64,000 nt of DNA from Dehalococcoidia bacterium (GTDB taxonomy: Bacteria; Chloroflexota; Dehalococcoidia; UBA6926): assembly GCA_965206275.1 (NCBI GenBank), contig OZ242203.1:1123190-1187189 (forward strand), in the 5' to 3' direction. The notes below the pieces were generated by a model. That model saw only the letters and a program-made list of their open reading frames with translations. It searched no databases and had not been told where the DNA came from. Each line of letters starts with the position of its first letter. The stretch's first letter is position 1. Positions 8,685-26,604 of the stretch are shown here, one piece after another. A program made the position numbers and the translations under genes.

Positions 8685-9206
8685 TTAAAGTAAGTACCGT
8701 CTTGTGGTCCCTTTGGAATGAGACCAGATAAGTTCGTAGCCGGGGTCTATAGGTCCCCAATCACTTTCAATGATTCCTTCCTGATCGAGATTGGCGCAGA
8801 CCCACACAGCGCACGTGGGTAGGCCTCCATTGGCTTCGGAGTTGAATGCGAATACCGCAATTGCACCCGCATTGTCTGGGTCAAGCAAGGCGTTCTCATA
8901 GCCACCCCATGCTGAGGTCAGAACTCGGGTGCCATCGTCTCGACGCGTCAACTTGTCTGCATAGAGAGTAGCAATGACCTCAGGGTTAGTGTCGCTGCTA
9001 TCGACTTCAACTATAAAATTGACTTCGCGAATATTTGCATGCCCTTCTAGCAAATCAGGCAAGAATTGCACGGCTAGATCAATCGGAATTCTCGGCCCTG
9101 GGTCGCTATTCCCCGACGCAAGAGTGTCAGAAGGGGACAGTCTCTTAATCCATAAGAGAGATTCTCGCTCCCATTGCCGATCCAACCATTCACGAAGAGT
9201 TGGCAT
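8685..9206 (-). CDS. stand-alone EcoRII N-terminal (effector DNA-binding) domain protein
   Basis: W..IKRLS..DT..SG, LLDPDNAGAIAVFAF and VWVC..LDQEGIIE...GPIDPG parallel the EcoRII N-domain; no catalytic C-domain; AAGGAG SD. Confidence 0.75.
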   Translation of the reverse strand: MPTLREWLDRQWERESLLWIKRLSPSDTLASGNSDPGPRIPIDLAVQFLPDLLEGHANIREVNFIVEVDSSDTNPEVIATLYADKLTRRDDGTRVLTSAWGGYENALLDPDNAGAIAVFAFNSEANGGLPTCAVWVCANLDQEGIIESDWGPIDPGYELIWSHSKGTTRRYLL

Positions 9207-9255
9207 TTTTCTATGTCTCCTTCATCTGGGGGCAGAATCCTACCCAGAATGATGA

Positions 9256-10050
9256 CTACCCTCGAAAGATGTGTTCCCGATGGTAAGCGAGAAACTCGGG
9301 GGCTGGCCGCAGTTTTTCGGGTGGGCTAATCGCATGTCCGTCATAAGCTACGATGGTTTGCGCAAAGAATCTGTCCTCATCCGATTCAGTATTTCTAGAA
9401 ACTCTAACAATCAGGTCGCCATCGAGAGTTATCAAGCCACGGTCAAATGCCTTGTCATGTAGCGCAGACAGGAGCAGTCCATTGCGCGGGTTAATCCGGT
9501 TCTTCTTGTCGATGTGCCACGGAACGATGTGGCTGGCAATGAGCAAGTCAGTCTCCGAAAGTCCGGAGATGCAACATCGGTAGTTGTATGCCGCCAAGAC
9601 TGCCTTACGGAAGAAGTCTTGCCCAGCTCTCTGAATGACGACCACCTGTCGCTCTGTAGTACGTTCTTGTTCCTCATCAGCCATGTCAGCAGGGTCGGAT
9701 TCATCCAACAGTCCATGGTTCTGCCGGGCGACTGTCGATTCCTCCAAAAAGGCATCCCAGTCCTCACCCATTTCGTTCCAAATGTCTCTGACAGCGGCCG
9801 ACCCGTTTTGTAAGCCCCGCTGTTCGAGGTCTGGGTCCAAGCTCGCATAGTTGCCTAGCCTCATGGCAACCGACCCGCCTGTCCGCCCAATTGCCTCCGC
9901 TACTCGCATAACTTCCTTATTCCGCGAGTTGTATTGTCCGAAGGGAATCCGCCAATAGAGGTCGAGGACAATCAGCAGTTCTTCCCTACTCCAGCCGCGT
10001 CCTCTGCGGGAAGAACTGGTATCACCGAGAATCTGTCCGCCGTTGGCCAT
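9256..10050 (-). CDS. HNH endonuclease (predicted restriction endonuclease type)
   Basis: WSREEL..LYWRIPFG N-domain; FFRKAVLAAYNYRCCISG, ASHIVPW, NPRNGLLL..LHDKAFDRG, YHREHIF. Confidence 0.88.
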   Translation of the reverse strand: MANGGQILGDTSSSRRGRGWSREELLIVLDLYWRIPFGQYNSRNKEVMRVAEAIGRTGGSVAMRLGNYASLDPDLEQRGLQNGSAAVRDIWNEMGEDWDAFLEESTVARQNHGLLDESDPADMADEEQERTTERQVVVIQRAGQDFFRKAVLAAYNYRCCISGLSETDLLIASHIVPWHIDKKNRINPRNGLLLSALHDKAFDRGLITLDGDLIVRVSRNTESDEDRFFAQTIVAYDGHAISPPEKLRPAPEFLAYHREHIFRG

Positions 10051-14070: not shown

Positions 14071-14121
14071 CTTTCCGCCATTGGATATCGCCGGAACAAC
14101 GCTCCCTGGGAGGTGAAACGA

Positions 14122-15012
14122 ATGGCGCTCACATTGACGGAAGCAGCCAAGCTCTCCAATGACGTCCTGTTGCAGGGCGTGATAGAAACGGTGATCAAGG
14201 ACAGTCCCGTTCTCCAGACGCTGCCCTTCATCGAGATTGTCGGGAACGGTCTCACCTACAACAGGGAAAAGGCCGCTCCGACAGTCGGTTTCTACAGCGT
14301 TGGCGATACGTGGACGGAGAGCACGCCGACGTTCACCCAGTTGACGGCGACGCTCTCCATCCTGGGCGGCGACGCGGACGTGGACAACTATCTTGCGACC
14401 ACACGGTCCAACATCCAGGACCTCGAAGCGGCGGTCGTACAGCTGAAGGCGCGGGCGATCCAGCACAAGTTCGAGGATACGTTCATCAACGGGAACACGG
14501 ACATTGAAGAGGACTCGTTCGATGGGCTCGACATCCTGGCAACGGGTGATCAGGCCCTCACGATGGGGCAGGACGGCGACACGCTGACGCTGGACAAGCT
14601 CGATGAACTCATCGACACCGTCAAGGGTGGGAAGCCGGAGATGCTCCTGATGAGCCGCCGCTCTCGCCGCAAGCTCAATTCGCTCGCCCGCGCCTCCGGT
14701 TCCGGCATCGTGGTGTCCGACCGCGATGAGTTCGGCCAGATGGTGCAGTACTACGACGGCATCCCTGTGGGCGTGAACGACTGGATCTCCGATGCGCAGA
14801 CGGTTGGGAACAGCACCGATTGCTCGACGATTTTCGCCTACCAGGCAGGCGAGGGCGGGCTTGTGGGTCTAACGTCTCCGGGCGGACTGCAGGTGGAACG
14901 CGTCGGCAACCTGGAGACGAAGGACGCGCGGCGAACACGCGTGAAGTGGTACGTGAGCCTTGCCCTGTTCAACACGGCCAAGCTCGCCAAGCTGACGGGA
15001 GTTCGGGACTAG
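14122..15012 (+). CDS. phage major capsid protein (HK97-like fold predicted)
   Basis: MALTLTEAAKLS, SPVLQTLPF, F.NG....SFDGL, TLDKLDELID, YDGIPV, RVKWY.SLA..N...LAKL.GV; GGAGGTG SD before ATG 14122; 296 aa. Confidence 0.85.
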   Translation: MALTLTEAAKLSNDVLLQGVIETVIKDSPVLQTLPFIEIVGNGLTYNREKAAPTVGFYSVGDTWTESTPTFTQLTATLSILGGDADVDNYLATTRSNIQDLEAAVVQLKARAIQHKFEDTFINGNTDIEEDSFDGLDILATGDQALTMGQDGDTLTLDKLDELIDTVKGGKPEMLLMSRRSRRKLNSLARASGSGIVVSDRDEFGQMVQYYDGIPVGVNDWISDAQTVGNSTDCSTIFAYQAGEGGLVGLTSPGGLQVERVGNLETKDARRTRVKWYVSLALFNTAKLAKLTGVRD

Positions 15013-15051
15013 TTTCTCTGTTCGCGGTCAGCACGGATAGAAGGACGGAAG

Positions 15052-15672
15052 ATGAGCACGCTGGGACAGGTGCGGGAGCGCGTACGGCGCGATCTGCACG
15101 ATGAGGACGCCAATAGCTACCGCTGGACGGACGATGTGTTGAACCGTCACATCGAGCGGGCGCTTGCCAAGGTCTCAAAGGTCGCGCCGCAGGAGAAGAT
15201 AGCTTCCAAGGGACTGACAGACGGCAGCAGGGAAGTCTCGGTTGCAGACCTGACCGATCGCGTCGTCGTTGAGGCTGTCGAGTATCCCGTGGGCAAGCAC
15301 CCACCGTCCCGCGTGCGCTTCAACCAATGGGGCGACACGCTCATGTTGAACCTGCCCGGCGAACCGAAGGTAGGCGAGAGCGTCACCGTGTACTACGGCG
15401 CGCTTCATCGACTGACGGACTCCGCATCCACCCTGCCCGAGGCGCTGGAGGAGCTGGTGATCACGGGCGCGGCGGCATACGCGGCGCTGGAGTGGGCCGC
15501 CTACGCGGTCAATCGCCTGAATGTCGGCGGGCAGGACGTGTGGCGACAGTACCTGACATGGGCGGAGGAGCGGATGGCCGACTTTGAGCTGCAGTTGGCA
15601 CGAATCGGCCGACGCTCCGGCTTTCGCGCTCGAAAGCTCTTCCATGCGGACGATGGCGACGGCGAACTCTAG
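15052..15672 (+). CDS. putative phage head-tail adaptor protein
   Basis: TLGQVRERVRRDLHD....RWTDDVLNRHIERAL N-terminal helix pair typical of adaptor proteins; directly follows the capsid gene. Confidence 0.6.
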   Translation: MSTLGQVRERVRRDLHDEDANSYRWTDDVLNRHIERALAKVSKVAPQEKIASKGLTDGSREVSVADLTDRVVVEAVEYPVGKHPPSRVRFNQWGDTLMLNLPGEPKVGESVTVYYGALHRLTDSASTLPEALEELVITGAAAYAALEWAAYAVNRLNVGGQDVWRQYLTWAEERMADFELQLARIGRRSGFRARKLFHADDGDGEL

Positions 15673-15716
15673 GCCGTCCGAACGCAGCAGCACGATCAAT
15701 TCCACGGTGAGCAGAG

Positions 15717-17702
15717 ATGCATTCCCTATCTGAAACCCTGCTGGCCGCGCAGCGCGACCGCGCAGCCATTCCGTACGTGCACGCCACGCTCGCTGAGCGG
15801 TGGGGCGGCGTAACACAACTCAGATGGGAACGCCTTGTTTCCGAGGAGGAGTCGGACGGGCCGCATGACGCCGTCGTCACGTCCGGCGGCTCTCTCATCC
15901 GCGTCCGCGCTCAGGCCAACCCGAACGGGCTCTTCGTACAGCGGACAGTCACTCCCGGCCCGGATACACAGTTCGGGGCGTGGCGAAATCTCGGCACGAC
16001 ATCCGCCTCAGCAGGCGTTGCGGTCATTGAGCTTGGCGGACAGATCCATGTTTTTGACGTTGCGCCCAACCAGCGGACAATCCGCGAGCGAACGAGCCGG
16101 GATGACGGCGCGACCTTCGGCTCGCCGCGCACAATCGCTACCGCGGCTGCAAATGTGACCTCCCTTGCGGCGGCATCCAGCGCGGGCGGCGGAGCGCTGC
16201 TGTTCTACGCGGAGTCAACAGGCACAGTTCGCTCAATGACGAGAACTGCAGGGGCATGGTCGTCACCTGCCGGGTGGACCAACTCGTTGAGGACGGTGGA
16301 CGGCATCGCATGCGCCCATATCGACGGCGATTGGGCCGTCGTGGTGTGCGGGACACTCTCAAACAGCTCGTCAGGCGTGTGGACATGCACCTTTGGTGCG
16401 GGTTCATCACAGACCGCGGGAACGTGGTCGACACTGCGGGAGGTGATTGCGTCGGCCGCGGGCGCTGATGTGACATACTCCGATCCCGGCATTTGCGAGG
16501 CGGACGGGCCGCGGATCAGCTTTGTTGAAGCGTATAGCGGGACGACCGCGTACACGCAGACGATGACGACGCACGCTGCGGCAGGTACGCGCTTTCGCGA
16601 CCATCGCTGGCGCGAACCCTCGCCGTTCGGCCAGATCGGAGGGACAGGGCCTGCGCTCACTGCCAATGCCTCCTTTGCGTGGCTGACAACACCGTCGGGC
16701 GTGTGGCGAGCGCGCAGCGGCACCCCGTCCATTGATATTTCCCAGTCCGTTATTGCCGTGGACGTGAGAGAAACACCGCGCGGCGCTTCCGTGGCACTTG
16801 TTCTGGCTGAAGGGCCGCACCTTGATGCGTCAATCACTGTTGGCTCGGGCCCATTGGGGCATGAACTCAGCATTGCGTGGGGTTTTGAGACGGCTGAAGG
16901 ACAGGAAACGGGTCAGCCCCAGCGCTATTGGGTTCGGGAGGTTCGACGAGAGACGCAGCGGGGCAGCCCTGTAACGGTTTTGGAGGCGGAGGACGCGTGG
17001 TGGTTCCTGGGCAACATGCGAGCGCGGCGTCAACTCACGTGGCCGGCGCACACGACATCCGTGTGGAACATCCTCGGCCAGTTGCTCACAATGGCGGGTC
17101 TGTCCGCCACACTTGCCCGTTCAAGCCCGGCGATCGTCGCCACGTATCCCGCCATCACGGTCTCCCCGAATGACAGTCTTGCGGTTGCCATCAACCGCCT
17201 CATGTCCCGTGTGCCGGATGTCCTGCGTTTCTCTGACGGCGTGCTAGAGGCAATTCACACCCGTGAGACCGACTCCGCCGTTTATTCCTATGGCGAGCCG
17301 GAGGGCCATGCCCTGCTGGACGCCGCGCGCTCATCCGCGCTCTCCCGCGTCAATCACGTGCAGGTCTACGGGCGCGGGGCAATCGCTCAGGCGGTCAATG
17401 AACGGGAGATGGCATCCGTCGGAAGTCTCTTGGTGCAGGTCGTCGACCCCTCACTGACAACAGCAGAGGTGGTGGCGACAAGAGCGGACGCCGAGCTACG
17501 CTCACGTGGCATCCTGCAGCCCTTTGCGCGCATCACGGTCCCGGTGAACGCCGGGCAGCAACTGCATGACGTGGTGTCGGTCACCGCGCCGTCTGTGGGG
17601 TGGGCGTCGGAGCGGTTGCGGGTGGCGGGCCTGCGGACCCGTTACGACATCGGCAGGTCGCAGCCGGTGTACCAGCAGGACATCGATCTGAGCGGAGTGT
17701 AG
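15717..17702 (+). CDS. putative phage tail protein (N-terminal beta-propeller plus C-terminal hub-like region)
   Basis: Asp-box SRDDGATF and Trp-marked beta blades in the N-half; C-half with alpha/beta pattern reminiscent of baseplate hub proteins; position in the capsid operon. Confidence 0.5.
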   Translation: MHSLSETLLAAQRDRAAIPYVHATLAERWGGVTQLRWERLVSEEESDGPHDAVVTSGGSLIRVRAQANPNGLFVQRTVTPGPDTQFGAWRNLGTTSASAGVAVIELGGQIHVFDVAPNQRTIRERTSRDDGATFGSPRTIATAAANVTSLAAASSAGGGALLFYAESTGTVRSMTRTAGAWSSPAGWTNSLRTVDGIACAHIDGDWAVVVCGTLSNSSSGVWTCTFGAGSSQTAGTWSTLREVIASAAGADVTYSDPGICEADGPRISFVEAYSGTTAYTQTMTTHAAAGTRFRDHRWREPSPFGQIGGTGPALTANASFAWLTTPSGVWRARSGTPSIDISQSVIAVDVRETPRGASVALVLAEGPHLDASITVGSGPLGHELSIAWGFETAEGQETGQPQRYWVREVRRETQRGSPVTVLEAEDAWWFLGNMRARRQLTWPAHTTSVWNILGQLLTMAGLSATLARSSPAIVATYPAITVSPNDSLAVAINRLMSRVPDVLRFSDGVLEAIHTRETDSAVYSYGEPEGHALLDAARSSALSRVNHVQVYGRGAIAQAVNEREMASVGSLLVQVVDPSLTTAEVVATRADAELRSRGILQPFARITVPVNAGQQLHDVVSVTAPSVGWASERLRVAGLRTRYDIGRSQPVYQQDIDLSGV

Positions 17703-17704
17703 GT

Positions 17705-17920
17705 ATGGAGCTGCGTCGGGGCACATTAAGGGGCTTCAACTCGTCGTCATTCACAGCAGACGTTCAGTTGGACGGGAGCGTGCCGACGTGGCTGACAGGG
17801 GCTCGCATCAGCCGGGCGATTCCGTCCACGGAGATGCTGGCCGGCCGATCGTGTATCGTGGCCTTCGCTTCAGACCCATCCGACCCCACTGAGGCCGTCG
17901 TTATCGCGGTTTACACCTAG
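17705..17920 (+). CDS. small beta-rich protein, putative spike/baseplate OB-fold
   Basis: MELRRGTLRGFNSSSFTADVQLDG...GRSCIVAF...AVVIAVYT, 71 aa; ATG 2 nt after the upstream stop. Confidence 0.5.
   Translation: MELRRGTLRGFNSSSFTADVQLDGSVPTWLTGARISRAIPSTEMLAGRSCIVAFASDPSDPTEAVVIAVYT

Positions 17921-23955: not shown

Positions 23956-26604
<2,649 letters not shown>

What the first reader, a model, noticed from the sequence alone, without database searches (positions are those of the whole stretch)
14122..17920. Minimal domesticated phage-derived particle cassette (capsid, adaptor, tail/hub, spike): candidate gene transfer agent-like system
Seen: four intact co-oriented genes with a strong SD on the first and base composition similar by eye to the housekeeping genes: major capsid (296 aa), adaptor-like (206 aa), propeller/hub-like (661 aa) and OB-fold-like (71 aa). 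The flanks are host-type genes (TPR operon; YciI, ASCH, UspA, comM). The whole 64 kb has no integrase, att repeats, repressor, replication, terminase, portal, protease, tail tube, tape measure or lysis gene, and no pseudogene debris. Established: GTAs are host-retained phage structural genes, often split over several loci and under host regulators; decaying prophages usually show frameshifts and leftover modules. Inference: a vertically inherited short-tailed GTA-like particle with portal/terminase encoded elsewhere, or, if those are absent, a DNA-free capsid-based compartment or delivery device.
Basis: partly seen in the sequence, partly recalled or inferred. Interest (0 to 1): 0.9.

Follow-up and report, generated by a model that had tools for sequence, protein, structure and literature searches.

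The report
Host-owned phage-derived particle genes in Dehalococcoidia
These four genes are one third of a ten-gene set for a small virus-like, DNA-packaging particle that many Dehalococcoidia bacteria inherit like ordinary genes, so it is probably a previously undescribed gene transfer agent.

Summary
Window 14122-17920 holds four intact co-oriented genes: an epsilon15-type HK97-fold major capsid protein, an SU10-type portal adaptor, a 661-aa protein (N-terminal beta-propeller plus gp27/Mu gp44-like tail hub), and a 71-aa OB-fold domain like the base of phage central spikes.

The same chromosome has a second locus about 45 kb upstream, outside the window: p123, p107, large terminase, an HTH protein and the portal. 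A third locus about 231 kb downstream encodes a scaffold-like protein.

- In other Dehalococcoidia the same genes form one 10-15 kb cluster flanked directly by housekeeping genes.
- The capsid is present in 21 of 21 other genomes of the genus, at the same chromosomal site in all 13 loci checked, and in 229 of 401 class genomes.
- dN/dS is 0.08-0.25, like the neighbouring host genes.
- The capsid+portal+terminase tree agrees with a GyrB tree.
- No integrase, repeats, replication genes or long-tail genes were found beside it.

Best reading: an anciently domesticated, multi-locus, short-tailed particle of the gene-transfer-agent kind. Particle production, packaged DNA and transfer are untested. 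My literature searches found no description of it.

The parts
14108..14115 (+). Shine-Dalgarno sequence GGGAGGTG, six bases before the capsid start codon
   Evidence: Read directly from the sequence.
14122..15012 (+). Major capsid protein, 296 aa, HK97 fold of the epsilon15 gp7 type
   Evidence: phrog_212 E 4e-73 over residues 1-295; PF05065 E 9e-9; NCBIfam MCP_gp7_epsi_15 E 5.7e-63. Best phage matches are 43% identical. Orthologues are 83-99% identical in the genus and 56-77% in the class.
15052..15672 (+). Portal (head-to-tail) adaptor, 206 aa
   Evidence: PF24175 SU10_adaptor E 7e-8, 33.6 bits against a cut-off of 27. A profile of 11 orthologues weakly matches PDB 7wmp 'Adaptor protein gp12', E 0.054. 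It follows the capsid gene in the same order in 38 of 67 non-genus loci.
15717..16718 (+). N-terminal beta-propeller domain of the 661-aa protein, about residues 1-334; lectin- or sialidase-like, probably the surface-binding part
   Evidence: AlphaFold2 model from 14 orthologues, pLDDT 87.8, pTM 0.83. Foldseek matches Photorhabdus lectins and bacterial neuraminidases at E 3e-10 to 2e-9. The domain boundary is read from the model's secondary structure and is approximate.
16719..17702 (+). C-terminal tail-hub domain of the 661-aa protein, about residues 335-661; gp27 / Mu gp44 / VgrG type
   Evidence: Foldseek against PDB: 7b5h_AJ E 3.2e-17, Mu gp44 1wru E 6.6e-15 (TM 0.70 to the target), T4 gp27 1k28_D E 4.9e-11. 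Against BFVD: 'Tail protein', 'Phage protein D', '43 kDa tail protein' at E 1e-17 to 1e-13. No sequence match in 50,697 phage records.
17705..17920 (+). 71-aa OB-fold protein, probably the plug or spike base seated on the hub
   Evidence: AlphaFold2 pLDDT 93.3, a five-strand barrel. Foldseek finds IF1 (6e-4) and the N-terminal OB domains of Mu gp45 (9ki1_V, 2.7e-3), P2 gpV (3qr8, 4.3e-3) and T4 gp5 (1wth_A, 1.9e-2). In 8 other loci the same domain heads a fibre-like protein of 307-576 aa. Hub-plus-OB complex prediction: weak support, score 0.45, best control 0.02.

Best explanation
The cassette is the capsid-and-tail third of a ten-gene, phage-derived particle system. The host lineage has owned the system since early in the history of class Dehalococcoidia.

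**The three loci in this genome**
- Locus B (G000:C1 about 1,088,385-1,092,337, outside the window): p123, p107 (C-terminal membrane helix), large terminase, a 148-aa HTH protein, and an SPP1-type portal.
- Locus A (this finding): capsid, adaptor, propeller-hub, OB plug.
- Locus C (1,372,357-1,372,854): a scaffold-like protein.

**Proposed working (all inferred)**
1. Scaffold, capsid protein and portal build a procapsid without a protease, as in epsilon15- or P22-type heads.
2. The terminase fills it with DNA. p123 and/or the HTH protein may act as the small subunit.
3. Because the genes are scattered over 285 kb and no replication or excision module exists, that DNA must be mostly host DNA.
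4. The adaptor closes the portal. A hub trimer plugged by the OB protein forms a minimal short tail.
5. The hub's propeller binds a surface glycan of a recipient cell, and the DNA is delivered.

**Shown:** gene identities, the three-locus layout, conservation, purifying selection and co-divergence with the host.
**Not shown:** assembly, host-DNA packaging, release, adsorption and transfer.
For: 1. **Phage ancestry of the parts.**

2. **One system.** TerL, portal and capsid lie together within the fetched stretch (21 kb or less) in 9 of 67 non-genus loci. All of p123 through the OB protein are contiguous in L046, L062, L069 and L098, and in G042 and G053. Capsid, adaptor and hub keep the same order in 38 of 67 loci.

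3. **Co-occurrence in 61 relatives**.
 - Hits: capsid 42, portal 46, TerL 46, hub 42, scaffold 39.
 - 37 genomes have capsid, portal, TerL and hub together.
 - 14 genomes have none of the five, apart from one weak 57-residue TerL-like match in G022 (E 1.7e-4).

4. **Fixed in the genus.**
 - Capsid, TerL, hub and scaffold are found in 21 of 21 other genomes, and the portal in 20 of 21.
 - Locus A sits between the TPR operon and ASCH in 13 of 13 genus loci.
 - Locus B has the same gene order in 10 of 10 genomes, and locus C lies beside the same phosphoesterase gene in 9 of 10.

5. **No mobility module.**
 - The flanks are housekeeping genes.
 - The contiguous 10.5-kb cluster in L069 is flanked downstream by MoaA, Ham1, FBPase, CobO and PurF-like genes; its upstream flank was not scanned.
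 - No flanking repeats or tRNA were found.
 - The genome's only two tyrosine recombinases lie far away.

6. **Purifying selection.** Median pairwise dN/dS among 9-10 genus genomes is 0.076 (capsid) to 0.249 (p107), against 0.038-0.197 for eight flanking host genes. dS is similar: 0.58-1.10 against 0.58-1.15.

7. **Co-divergence with the host.**
 - The capsid+portal+TerL tree and the GyrB tree of the same 19 genomes share the genus clade, its branching order (G009, then G021 and G015, then the core pairs G004+G008 and G007+G014) and the G041+G042 pair.
 - Four GyrB clades missing from the free tree are not rejected (AU p 0.19-0.37).

8. **A working packaging enzyme.** Walker A-like RQxGKNELSA, LExDExQ, TTVxYGTxW and two nuclease Asp motifs are at least 95% conserved in 29 TerL orthologues of 41-100% identity.

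9. **Class-wide spread.** The capsid is in 229 of 401 class genomes, nearly always as one match. Families are close to all-or-none: f17 31/34, f22 10/10, f24 0/34, f26 0/11, f31 0/10 (the tally includes one unpublished genome, G231).

10. **Nearest phages are far more distant.** The best phage capsid is 43% identical. Of 18 proteins of that phage, only the capsid protein hits this genome.
Against: - **No functional data.** There is no evidence of particles, of what they hold, or of transfer. No RNA data set was found.
- **No lysis gene or regulator identified.** The small terminase subunit is only guessed: p123 and p107 have no family hit.
- **Possible defects in some carriers.**
 - Capsid split over two frames in G004.
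 - One TAA in the portal of G019.
 - Scaffold in two pieces in G017.
 - Stops or fragments in G028, G030, G032, G033, G034, G036 and G039.
 - These are either assembly errors or real decay in some lineages.
- **Losses in close relatives.** The system was not found in the two sister genera of the same family (0 of 3 genomes each) or in whole families. It is therefore dispensable.
- **Limits of the tree test.** It uses one host marker and 19 genomes, deep nodes are weakly supported in both trees, and the tested clades were chosen after seeing the trees.
- **Unprecedented tail.** To my knowledge no solved short tail joins a gp27-like hub directly to an adaptor, so the proposed tail architecture has no structural precedent.
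- **Only weak support for the hub-OB contact**.
Confidence: 0.6

Rival explanations
1. It is a domesticated particle, but its job is not gene transfer. The host may keep it for another use: killing or marking competitors through the hub and propeller, exporting DNA for biofilm or nutrient purposes, acting as a decoy or abortive response to related phages, or delivering a protein cargo.
For: All the evidence for domestication fits this reading equally well. The hub carries a lectin- or sialidase-like propeller. In some lineages the OB domain is fused to long fibre-like extensions, so surface targeting is under diversification. The hub is the fastest-evolving part: 24-41% identity across the class against 56-77% for the capsid. 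In G048 the p123-c52-TerL unit exists in four copies, which plain random packaging does not require.
Against: Keeping portal and terminase under purifying selection with intact ATPase and nuclease motifs points to DNA-filled heads. Known killing particles (tailocins) have dropped heads and packaging genes (general knowledge). No toxin or effector gene is linked to the cluster in the loci examined.
Confidence: 0.2
2. These are prophage remnants or repeated lysogeny. A very successful temperate phage family of Dehalococcoidia keeps integrating, and what is seen are defective prophages in various states of decay.
For: Some carriers show stops or fragments in single genes. IMG/VR lists 511 stretches with related capsids, filed as viral. 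Capsid relatives at 47-56% identity occur in 20 Chloroflexota genomes outside the class, with head genes but no detectable hub or OB protein. These could be true prophages of the ancestral phage group.
Against: - Position is identical across 13 of 13 genus loci, with host-like synonymous divergence.
- Three separate loci are each conserved.
- dN/dS is 0.08-0.25.
- Trees are congruent.
- No integrase, att-like repeats or tRNA target were found.
- The contiguous form is only about 10.5 kb, with housekeeping genes directly downstream (upstream not scanned).
- The 80 best IMG/VR contigs are short: median about 6 kb held, longest contig 27 kb. They carry the same genes in the same order and nothing more.
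Confidence: 0.05
3. It is a DNA-free capsid compartment or shell, as encapsulins are. The capsid protein forms a nanocompartment and the other genes are accessory.
For: The capsid has the HK97 fold shared with encapsulins. The cassette seen on its own has no portal or terminase.
Against: Portal, terminase and scaffold are present, co-inherited and under selection. The capsid matches phage major head families over its full length, not the encapsulin family. No cargo enzyme is linked to it.
Confidence: 0.04
4. It is a capsid-forming satellite or helper-dependent island. It would be a mobile element that makes its own heads and borrows tails, replication or lysis from a helper phage.
For: The gene set is small and head-centred, with its own terminase, as in capsid-forming phage-inducible islands (general knowledge).
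Against: It has no integrase, repressor, replication or excision genes. It is split over 285 kb in this genus. Vertical inheritance is congruent with the host. It has its own adaptor, hub and plug.
Confidence: 0.03

Closest known systems
Alphaproteobacterial type I gene transfer agents (RcGTA of Rhodobacter capsulatus)
   Same: Both are head-and-tail gene sets of phage origin of about 10-15 kb, without replication or integration genes. Both are endogenised, partly spread over several loci, inherited vertically and conserved across a large clade (definition and description read in PMC9662315, abstract and Introduction; this system).
   Different: The origin is independent. The capsid here is of the epsilon15 gp7 type, and none of the ten proteins hits any other NCBIfam model. 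No tube, tape measure or long-tail genes were found. The tail appears to be reduced to adaptor, hub and OB plug. The host phylum is Chloroflexota. No experimental evidence of particles or transfer exists.
Short-tailed phages epsilon15 and SU10 (capsid and adaptor families)
   Same: The capsid matches NCBIfam MCP_gp7_epsi_15 (E 5.7e-63) and Pfam SU10_MCP weakly. The adaptor matches Pfam SU10_adaptor. The head is scaffold-dependent and no protease gene was found.
   Different: There is no nozzle, tail needle or tail-spike homologue by sequence. The distal tail protein is instead a gp27-like hub. The nearest cultured-phage capsids, at 43%, belong to Pseudomonas siphophages of the Ab18 group, whose other 17 tested proteins do not match this genome.
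Central hub and spike of contractile and long-tailed phages and injection systems (T4 gp27-gp5, Mu gp44-gp45, P2 gpD-gpV, VgrG)
   Same: The fold of residues of about 335-661 matches these hubs (Foldseek E 1e-17 to 1e-11). The 71-aa protein matches the OB domain at the base of gp45, gpV and gp5. The gene order is hub then spike.
   Different: The hub is preceded by a roughly 330-residue beta-propeller in the same chain. The spike is reduced to the OB domain alone, with no beta-helix and no tip. No tube, sheath or baseplate wedge genes are present.
Encapsulins (HK97-fold nanocompartments)
   Same: Both are host-owned, vertically inherited HK97-fold shell proteins.
   Different: This system keeps portal, terminase, scaffold, adaptor and tail parts. 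Its capsid groups with phage head families. No cargo gene is linked to it.

Membership tests
Gene transfer agent (definition of Kogay et al. 2022, PMC9662315, Introduction) | Uses proteins derived from a tailed-phage ancestor to form phage-like particles | tested here: met
   Capsid, adaptor, portal, large terminase, scaffold-like protein and hub all match phage families or folds. The similarity criterion is met; no images of particles exist.
Gene transfer agent (definition of Kogay et al. 2022, PMC9662315, Introduction) | Mostly packages random pieces of host DNA | not testable with these tools
   This needs DNase-protected DNA from particles. The only indirect evidence is that TerL keeps its ATPase and nuclease motifs.
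Gene transfer agent (definition of Kogay et al. 2022, PMC9662315, Introduction) | Genes fully endogenised in the host genome, often across several loci | tested here: met
   There are three loci, at 1,088-1,092 kb, 1,137-1,141 kb and 1,372 kb of one chromosome. Each lies between housekeeping genes, and each is syntenic in the genus.
Gene transfer agent (definition of Kogay et al. 2022, PMC9662315, Introduction) | Its own genes cannot all be packaged into one particle | tested here: inconclusive
   The three loci span about 285 kb in this genome, far beyond what a head built from a 296-aa HK97-type protein is expected to hold (general knowledge). Head capacity was not measured. In lineages with a contiguous 10.5-kb cluster (L069) the criterion could fail.
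Gene transfer agent (definition of Kogay et al. 2022, PMC9662315, Introduction) | Mostly vertical inheritance and co-diversification with the host | tested here: met
   The capsid+portal+TerL tree and the GyrB tree of 19 genomes are congruent at supported nodes. Four discordant GyrB clades are not rejected, AU p 0.19-0.37. dS is like that of host genes. Family-level presence is near all-or-none. Only one host marker was used.
Gene transfer agent (definition of Kogay et al. 2022, PMC9662315, Introduction) | Packaged DNA is delivered to other cells | not testable with these tools
   This is an experimental criterion.
Functional or recently inactivated prophage | One contiguous element with integration, regulation, replication and lysis modules, bounded by attachment repeats | tested here: not met
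   The genes are split over three loci. No flanking repeats or tRNA were found. The tyrosine recombinases lie 533 kb and 537 kb from the cassette. The flanks are housekeeping genes. No lysis or replication family was seen among the neighbours scanned.
Encapsulin nanocompartment | HK97-fold shell without portal or packaging machinery, with a targeted cargo enzyme | tested here: not met
   Portal and terminase are co-inherited and selected. There is no hit to the encapsulin family and no linked cargo gene.
Tailocin or contractile injection system | Sheath and/or tube and baseplate, without head genes | tested here: not met
   No sheath, tail-tube (TTP_1) or tape-measure family was found in the genome. 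Head and packaging genes are present.

The most novel reading that the evidence does not exclude
This is an ancient, class-wide gene transfer agent of independent origin, the first in Chloroflexota. It would be built from about ten genes (roughly 10.5 kb where contiguous). Its tail would be of a kind not described in any phage: a portal adaptor joined directly to a gp27-type hub that carries its own lectin-like propeller and is plugged by a bare 71-residue OB domain. In some lineages the packaging unit (p123, the small membrane protein and the large terminase) has multiplied to four copies. That hints that different terminase sets could choose different DNA.
Probability: 0.35. Interest if true: 0.9.

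Novelty: new variant of a known kind. Interest (0 to 1): 0.8.

Why it matters
- **Few independent cases are known.** Gene transfer agents with an established genetic basis fall into only three independently domesticated groups (PMC9662315, abstract). Which bacteria own such particles is an open question for understanding gene flow.
- **The host group is important and hard to study.** Dehalococcoidia are abundant in subsurface, marine and contaminated settings (general knowledge; not tested here) and most are uncultured. A host-owned DNA-packaging particle conserved in 229 of 401 sampled species genomes would be a candidate main route of gene exchange in the class.
- **It bears on virus counts.** Virus-detection pipelines file these loci as viral: 511 stretches in IMG/VR. 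The finding therefore also affects how viral counts and "prophages" of Chloroflexota are read.
- **It may define a minimal particle.** The very small gene set and the unusual adaptor-hub-plug tail would be of interest as a minimal DNA-delivery particle.

Tried and rejected
**Steps that gave nothing**
- *Sequence searches for the 661-aa and 71-aa proteins.* Pfam, PHROGs and NCBIfam gave nothing. tblastn of the 661-aa protein against 50,697 phage records gave no match. Folds had to be predicted instead.
- *Profile searches of PDB.* The capsid profile gave nothing at E 0.001 or better. The OB profile gave only E 0.68-0.78. The adaptor profile gave one weak match, E 0.054.
- *p123, p107 and the HTH protein.* No informative family was found. 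The protein atlas gave only Chloroflexota clusters of hypothetical or HTH_23 proteins. A 0.80 score to a T5 small-terminase cluster is below the level that counts. The small terminase subunit therefore remains a guess.
- *Extra genes seen between capsid and adaptor in other lineages* (c8, c63, c51, c27). They have no tblastn match in this genome and no Pfam family. I do not count them as parts of this genome's system.
- *The 200-aa gene divergent from p123.* It is conserved only within the genus and is not part of the system elsewhere.
- *Expression.* No RNA holder was listed for the cassette. I did not lay reads.
- *Hub-plus-OB complex.* Weak support only: score 0.45, best control 0.02. The mark was reached by 58 of 80 solved complexes and 2 of 110 mismatched pairs. 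At 0.60 or under it was reached by only 7 of those 80 and by both mismatches. The runs agree in at least 98% of contacts, and the partner's pLDDT is at least 79. The job used two copies of each chain, unlike the tool's calibration and unlike the expected trimer.
- *Supplementary files of papers* were not consulted. Those of PMC9662315 could hold GTA gene lists that would sharpen the comparison.

**Readings considered and rejected:** prophage remnant, encapsulin, satellite and tailocin. See the rival explanations and the membership test.

**Literature**
- Terms combined gene transfer agent(s) with Dehalococcoidia, Chloroflexi, Chloroflexota or Dehalococcoides, and Dehalococcoidia with capsid, terminase and portal.
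- None of the listed titles or abstract openings describes this system, and one search returned 0 papers.
- Only PMC9662315 was opened (outline and Introduction). All other papers were seen as search listings only.

Full report
**What is in the window**

Positions 14122-17920 carry four intact genes on the + strand, of 296, 206, 661 and 71 codons. They are 39, 44 and 2 bases apart. A GGGAGGTG ribosome-binding site lies six bases before the first ATG.

- The first protein is a full-length phage major capsid protein. It matches phrog_212 at E 4e-73 over residues 1-295, Pfam Phage_capsid at E 9e-9, and NCBIfam MCP_gp7_epsi_15 at E 5.7e-63, above its cut-off.
- The second matches Pfam SU10_adaptor at E 7e-8, above the cut-off.
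- The third and fourth match no family in Pfam, PHROGs or NCBIfam. The third has no tblastn match in 50,697 phage records.

GC content and third-position GC are like those of the neighbours. The neighbours are ordinary cellular genes. On one side are EcoRII-N and HNH_2 nuclease-like genes, two TPR proteins and a membrane protein. On the other are YCII, ASCH, Usp, ComM-type Mg chelatase and a molybdopterin oxidoreductase. Further along lie an L25-like ORF (named by eye; no family search was run) and GyrB. There is no tRNA gene in the window, and no direct repeat brackets the cassette.

**The two unknown proteins**

An AlphaFold2 model of the 661-aa protein, built from 14 orthologues, is confident (pLDDT 87.8, pTM 0.83).
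- Its C-terminal half, from about residue 335, matches tail and baseplate hubs. Examples are the Anabaena and Algoriphagus injection-system baseplates (E 3e-17 and 5e-17), Mu gp44 (E 6.6e-15, TM 0.70 to the target), VgrG1 and T4 gp27.
- In the viral library it matches 'Tail protein', 'Phage protein D' and '43 kDa tail protein'.
- Its N-terminal half is a beta-propeller that matches Photorhabdus lectins and bacterial neuraminidases.

The 71-aa protein, modelled from 25 orthologues, is a five-strand OB barrel (pLDDT 93.3).
- Besides generic OB proteins such as IF1, Foldseek finds the N-terminal OB domains of the central spikes Mu gp45, P2 gpV and T4 gp5.
- In eight other Dehalococcoidia loci the same domain is the first 70 residues of a fibre-like protein of 307-576 aa. 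It therefore behaves as an anchoring domain.
- A complex prediction of hub plus OB protein gave weak support only: 0.45 against 0.02 for the best control.

**The rest of the system lies outside the window**

I compared 19-kb neighbourhoods of the capsid gene in distant relatives. They showed extra conserved genes next to it. Used as queries, these genes hit this same chromosome at two other places.

- *Locus B* (G000:C1 about 1,088,385-1,092,337; the window starts at 1,123,190) encodes five proteins:
 - p123;
 - p107, a coiled-coil protein with a C-terminal hydrophobic helix;
 - a large terminase (Terminase_6C E 8e-5; four PHROG terminase families);
 - a 148-aa HTH_23 protein;
 - an SPP1-type portal (E 2.5e-14; phrog_64 E 5e-25).
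- *Locus C* (1,372,357-1,372,854, minus strand) encodes a 166-aa coiled-coil protein. It is homologous to the gene that precedes the capsid gene elsewhere, and it weakly matches a head scaffolding PHROG (E 1e-3).

Neighbours of both loci are housekeeping genes: Rex, an ABC transporter, enoyl-CoA hydratase, nitronate monooxygenases, a phosphoesterase and RelA/SpoT.

The genome has only two tyrosine recombinase genes, at 604 kb and 1674 kb. It has no second capsid. It has no hit to other portal or terminase families, nor to sheath, tape-measure or TTP_1 tail-tube families.

**One system, ancestrally contiguous**

The 80 best capsid loci from one genome per species are all Dehalococcoidia or Chloroflexota assemblies, at 69% identity or more.

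In the 67 loci outside the genus:
- capsid, adaptor and hub occur in that order in 38;
- TerL, portal and capsid lie within the fetched stretch (21 kb or less) in 9;
- the whole series is contiguous in L046, L062, L069 and L098, and in G042 and G053. The series runs p123, (small membrane protein), TerL, HTH, portal, scaffold, capsid, adaptor, hub, OB.

In L069 the series occupies about 10.5 kb and is flanked downstream by MoaA, Ham1, fructose-bisphosphatase, CobO and a PurF-like gene; I did not scan its upstream flank. In L046 an acyl-CoA dehydrogenase lies a few genes upstream of the cluster. Only one of 12 such loci has a tRNA gene nearby. Different lineages have split the series at different points. 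A self-packaging phage could not tolerate that.

**Distribution**

Counts for the window's genome plus 60 relatives:

| Gene | Genomes with a hit (of 61) |
|---|---|
| Capsid | 42 |
| Portal | 46 |
| TerL | 46 |
| Hub | 42 |
| Scaffold | 39 |

- 37 genomes have capsid, portal, TerL and hub together.
- 14 have none of the five, apart from one weak 57-residue TerL-like match in G022.
- The 10 partial cases are mostly fragmented assemblies or show stops.
- In the genus, capsid, TerL, hub and scaffold are in 21 of 21 other genomes and the portal in 20 of 21. The exception has 230 contigs.
- Nothing was found in the two sister genera of the family (0 of 3 genomes each).
- In an even sample of the class, the capsid is found in 229 of 401 genomes and 127 of 207 genera. 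It is nearly always a single match. Family tallies are close to all-or-none: f17 31/34, f22 10/10, f21 6/7, f24 0/34, f26 0/11, f31 0/10 (one of the positives, G231, is an unpublished genome).
- Across the phylum sample, 20 genomes outside the class have capsids at 47-56% identity. In the five I fetched, head genes are present but no hub or OB homologue was detected. I leave open whether these are older relatives of the system or prophages.

**Vertical inheritance and selection**

- Within the genus, locus A lies between the TPR operon and ASCH in 13 of 13 loci.
- Locus B has the same five genes in order in 10 of 10 genomes. Locus C sits beside the same phosphoesterase gene in 9 of 10.
- The distance between the loci varies from 5 kb to over 200 kb.
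- Median pairwise dN/dS (Nei-Gojobori, 9-10 genomes) is 0.076 for the capsid, 0.10-0.11 for portal, TerL, adaptor and OB protein, 0.14 for hub and p123, and 0.19-0.25 for scaffold, HTH protein and p107.
- Eight flanking host genes give 0.038-0.197. Synonymous divergence is the same in both groups.
- A maximum-likelihood tree of concatenated capsid, portal and TerL from 19 genomes shares several features with the GyrB tree of the same genomes: the genus clade (100/100), the order G009, then G021 and G015, then the core, the pairs G004+G008 and G007+G014, and G041+G042 with G048.
- Four GyrB groupings absent from the free tree are not rejected by the particle-gene data (AU p 0.19-0.37). I named these groups after seeing the trees.
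- Capsid identity to the window tracks GyrB identity: 83% against 77% for G009, and 59-74% against 61-68% for other families.
- The closest phage capsids are only 43% identical.
- IMG/VR holds 511 related stretches. The 80 best are short contigs carrying the same genes in the same order, without further phage modules. They look like the same host loci, filed as viral.

**How it most likely works**

The set is what a minimal short-tailed head needs: a terminase, a portal, a scaffold, a capsid protein without a protease, an adaptor, and a distal piece. TerL keeps its Walker A-like, Walker B and catalytic Glu motifs, its coupling motif and two nuclease Asp motifs in 29 orthologues down to 41% identity. 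Heads are therefore probably filled with DNA.

With no replication, excision or contiguous genome, that DNA should be host DNA. This is how a gene transfer agent works. The adaptor would close the portal. The hub trimer and OB plug would form the tail tip. The propeller, or in other lineages the fibre fused to the OB domain, would bind the recipient.

Release is unexplained. p107, with its membrane helix, is the only candidate, and that is a guess. Regulation is also unknown.

**Comparison with what is known**

I measured the system against the six-point GTA definition of Kogay et al. 2022 (read in PMC9662315, Introduction).
- Three points are met here: phage-derived proteins, endogenised multi-locus genes, and vertical co-diversification.
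- One point is inconclusive: whether the particle is unable to package its own genes.
- Two points need experiments: random host DNA, and delivery.

It is not a member of the RcGTA family. The capsid is of the epsilon15 gp7 type, no long-tail genes exist, and no other NCBIfam model is hit. It fails the tests for prophage, encapsulin and tailocin (see the membership table).

Six full-text searches found no description of such a system in Dehalococcoidia or Chloroflexota. Only listings were read for those hits.

**Weak points**

- There are no functional data.
- Only one host marker was used for the trees.
- The genomes are metagenome-assembled. Single stops or frame breaks in some carriers (G004 capsid, G019 portal, G017 scaffold, and several non-genus genomes) cannot be told apart from assembly errors.
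- The small terminase subunit, the lysis function and the regulator are unidentified.
- The tail architecture is inferred from folds and gene order only.

**Verdict**

It is best described as a candidate new, independently domesticated gene-transfer-agent-like viriform, conserved across much of class Dehalococcoidia, with an unusually small gene set and an unusual tail. I put the domestication at about 0.85, and GTA-type gene transfer as its function at about 0.6.

Noticed in passing
G048 loci L242 (4753-6529), L243 (5125-7171), L244 (4603-6637) and L151 (2611-4536): In one genome of another family, the unit p123 + small membrane protein + large terminase is present in four paralogous copies (79-84% nucleotide identity). 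Only one copy is linked to the HTH protein and portal. The others sit between housekeeping genes (GlmS-like, UbiA, YceD, FabD-like, enoyl-CoA hydratase, MFS). A repeat of about 160 bp (89% identity) lies upstream of p123 in three copies. G030 has three TerL copies and G040 has two.
   Followed up: partly
L031 6355-10628 (G000:C1 about 1,372,355-1,376,628, minus strand): The scaffold-like gene lies downstream of, and on the same strand as, a RelA/SpoT (p)ppGpp synthetase-hydrolase gene, a tRNA-Leu gene and a calcineurin-like phosphoesterase gene. The phosphoesterase neighbour is conserved in 9 of 10 genus genomes. A link to starvation signalling is only a thought.
   Followed up: partly
window 8685-10050, minus strand: There are two nuclease-like genes, EcoRII-N (E 3e-22) and HNH_2 (E 5e-13), in a stretch of lower GC (0.52 for 9001-10000). 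This is possibly a small restriction or defence island next to the TPR operon. The HNH gene recurs near the cassette in only some genus genomes.
   Followed up: no
window 23956-26604: GyrB of this genus is 882 aa, against about 640-690 aa in other families of the class. Alignments to those break after about residue 590, so the genus carries a large insertion in GyrB.
   Followed up: no
L071, L080, L083, L085, L088, L091, L106, L107: In these Dehalococcoidia loci the 70-residue OB domain is fused to a fibre-like extension of 240-500 residues. Five of them end in a shared ...LKWRGS.GT.TT.A.A motif. In most of them the gene sits directly after the capsid gene rather than after the hub gene.
   Followed up: partly
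L237-L241 (G555, G653, G587, G502, G566): Chloroflexota outside the class carry single capsid genes at 47-56% identity. In four of the five fetched loci, related portal, TerL or scaffold genes lie nearby; L237 showed the capsid alone. No detectable hub or OB protein was found, and the gene order differs.
   Followed up: partly
L030 10357-11028, minus strand (next to the portal gene): A PLD-like nuclease with a zinc ribbon matches phrog_9329 at E 2.7e-36. It is present beside the portal in some genus genomes and replaced by another gene in others.
   Followed up: no
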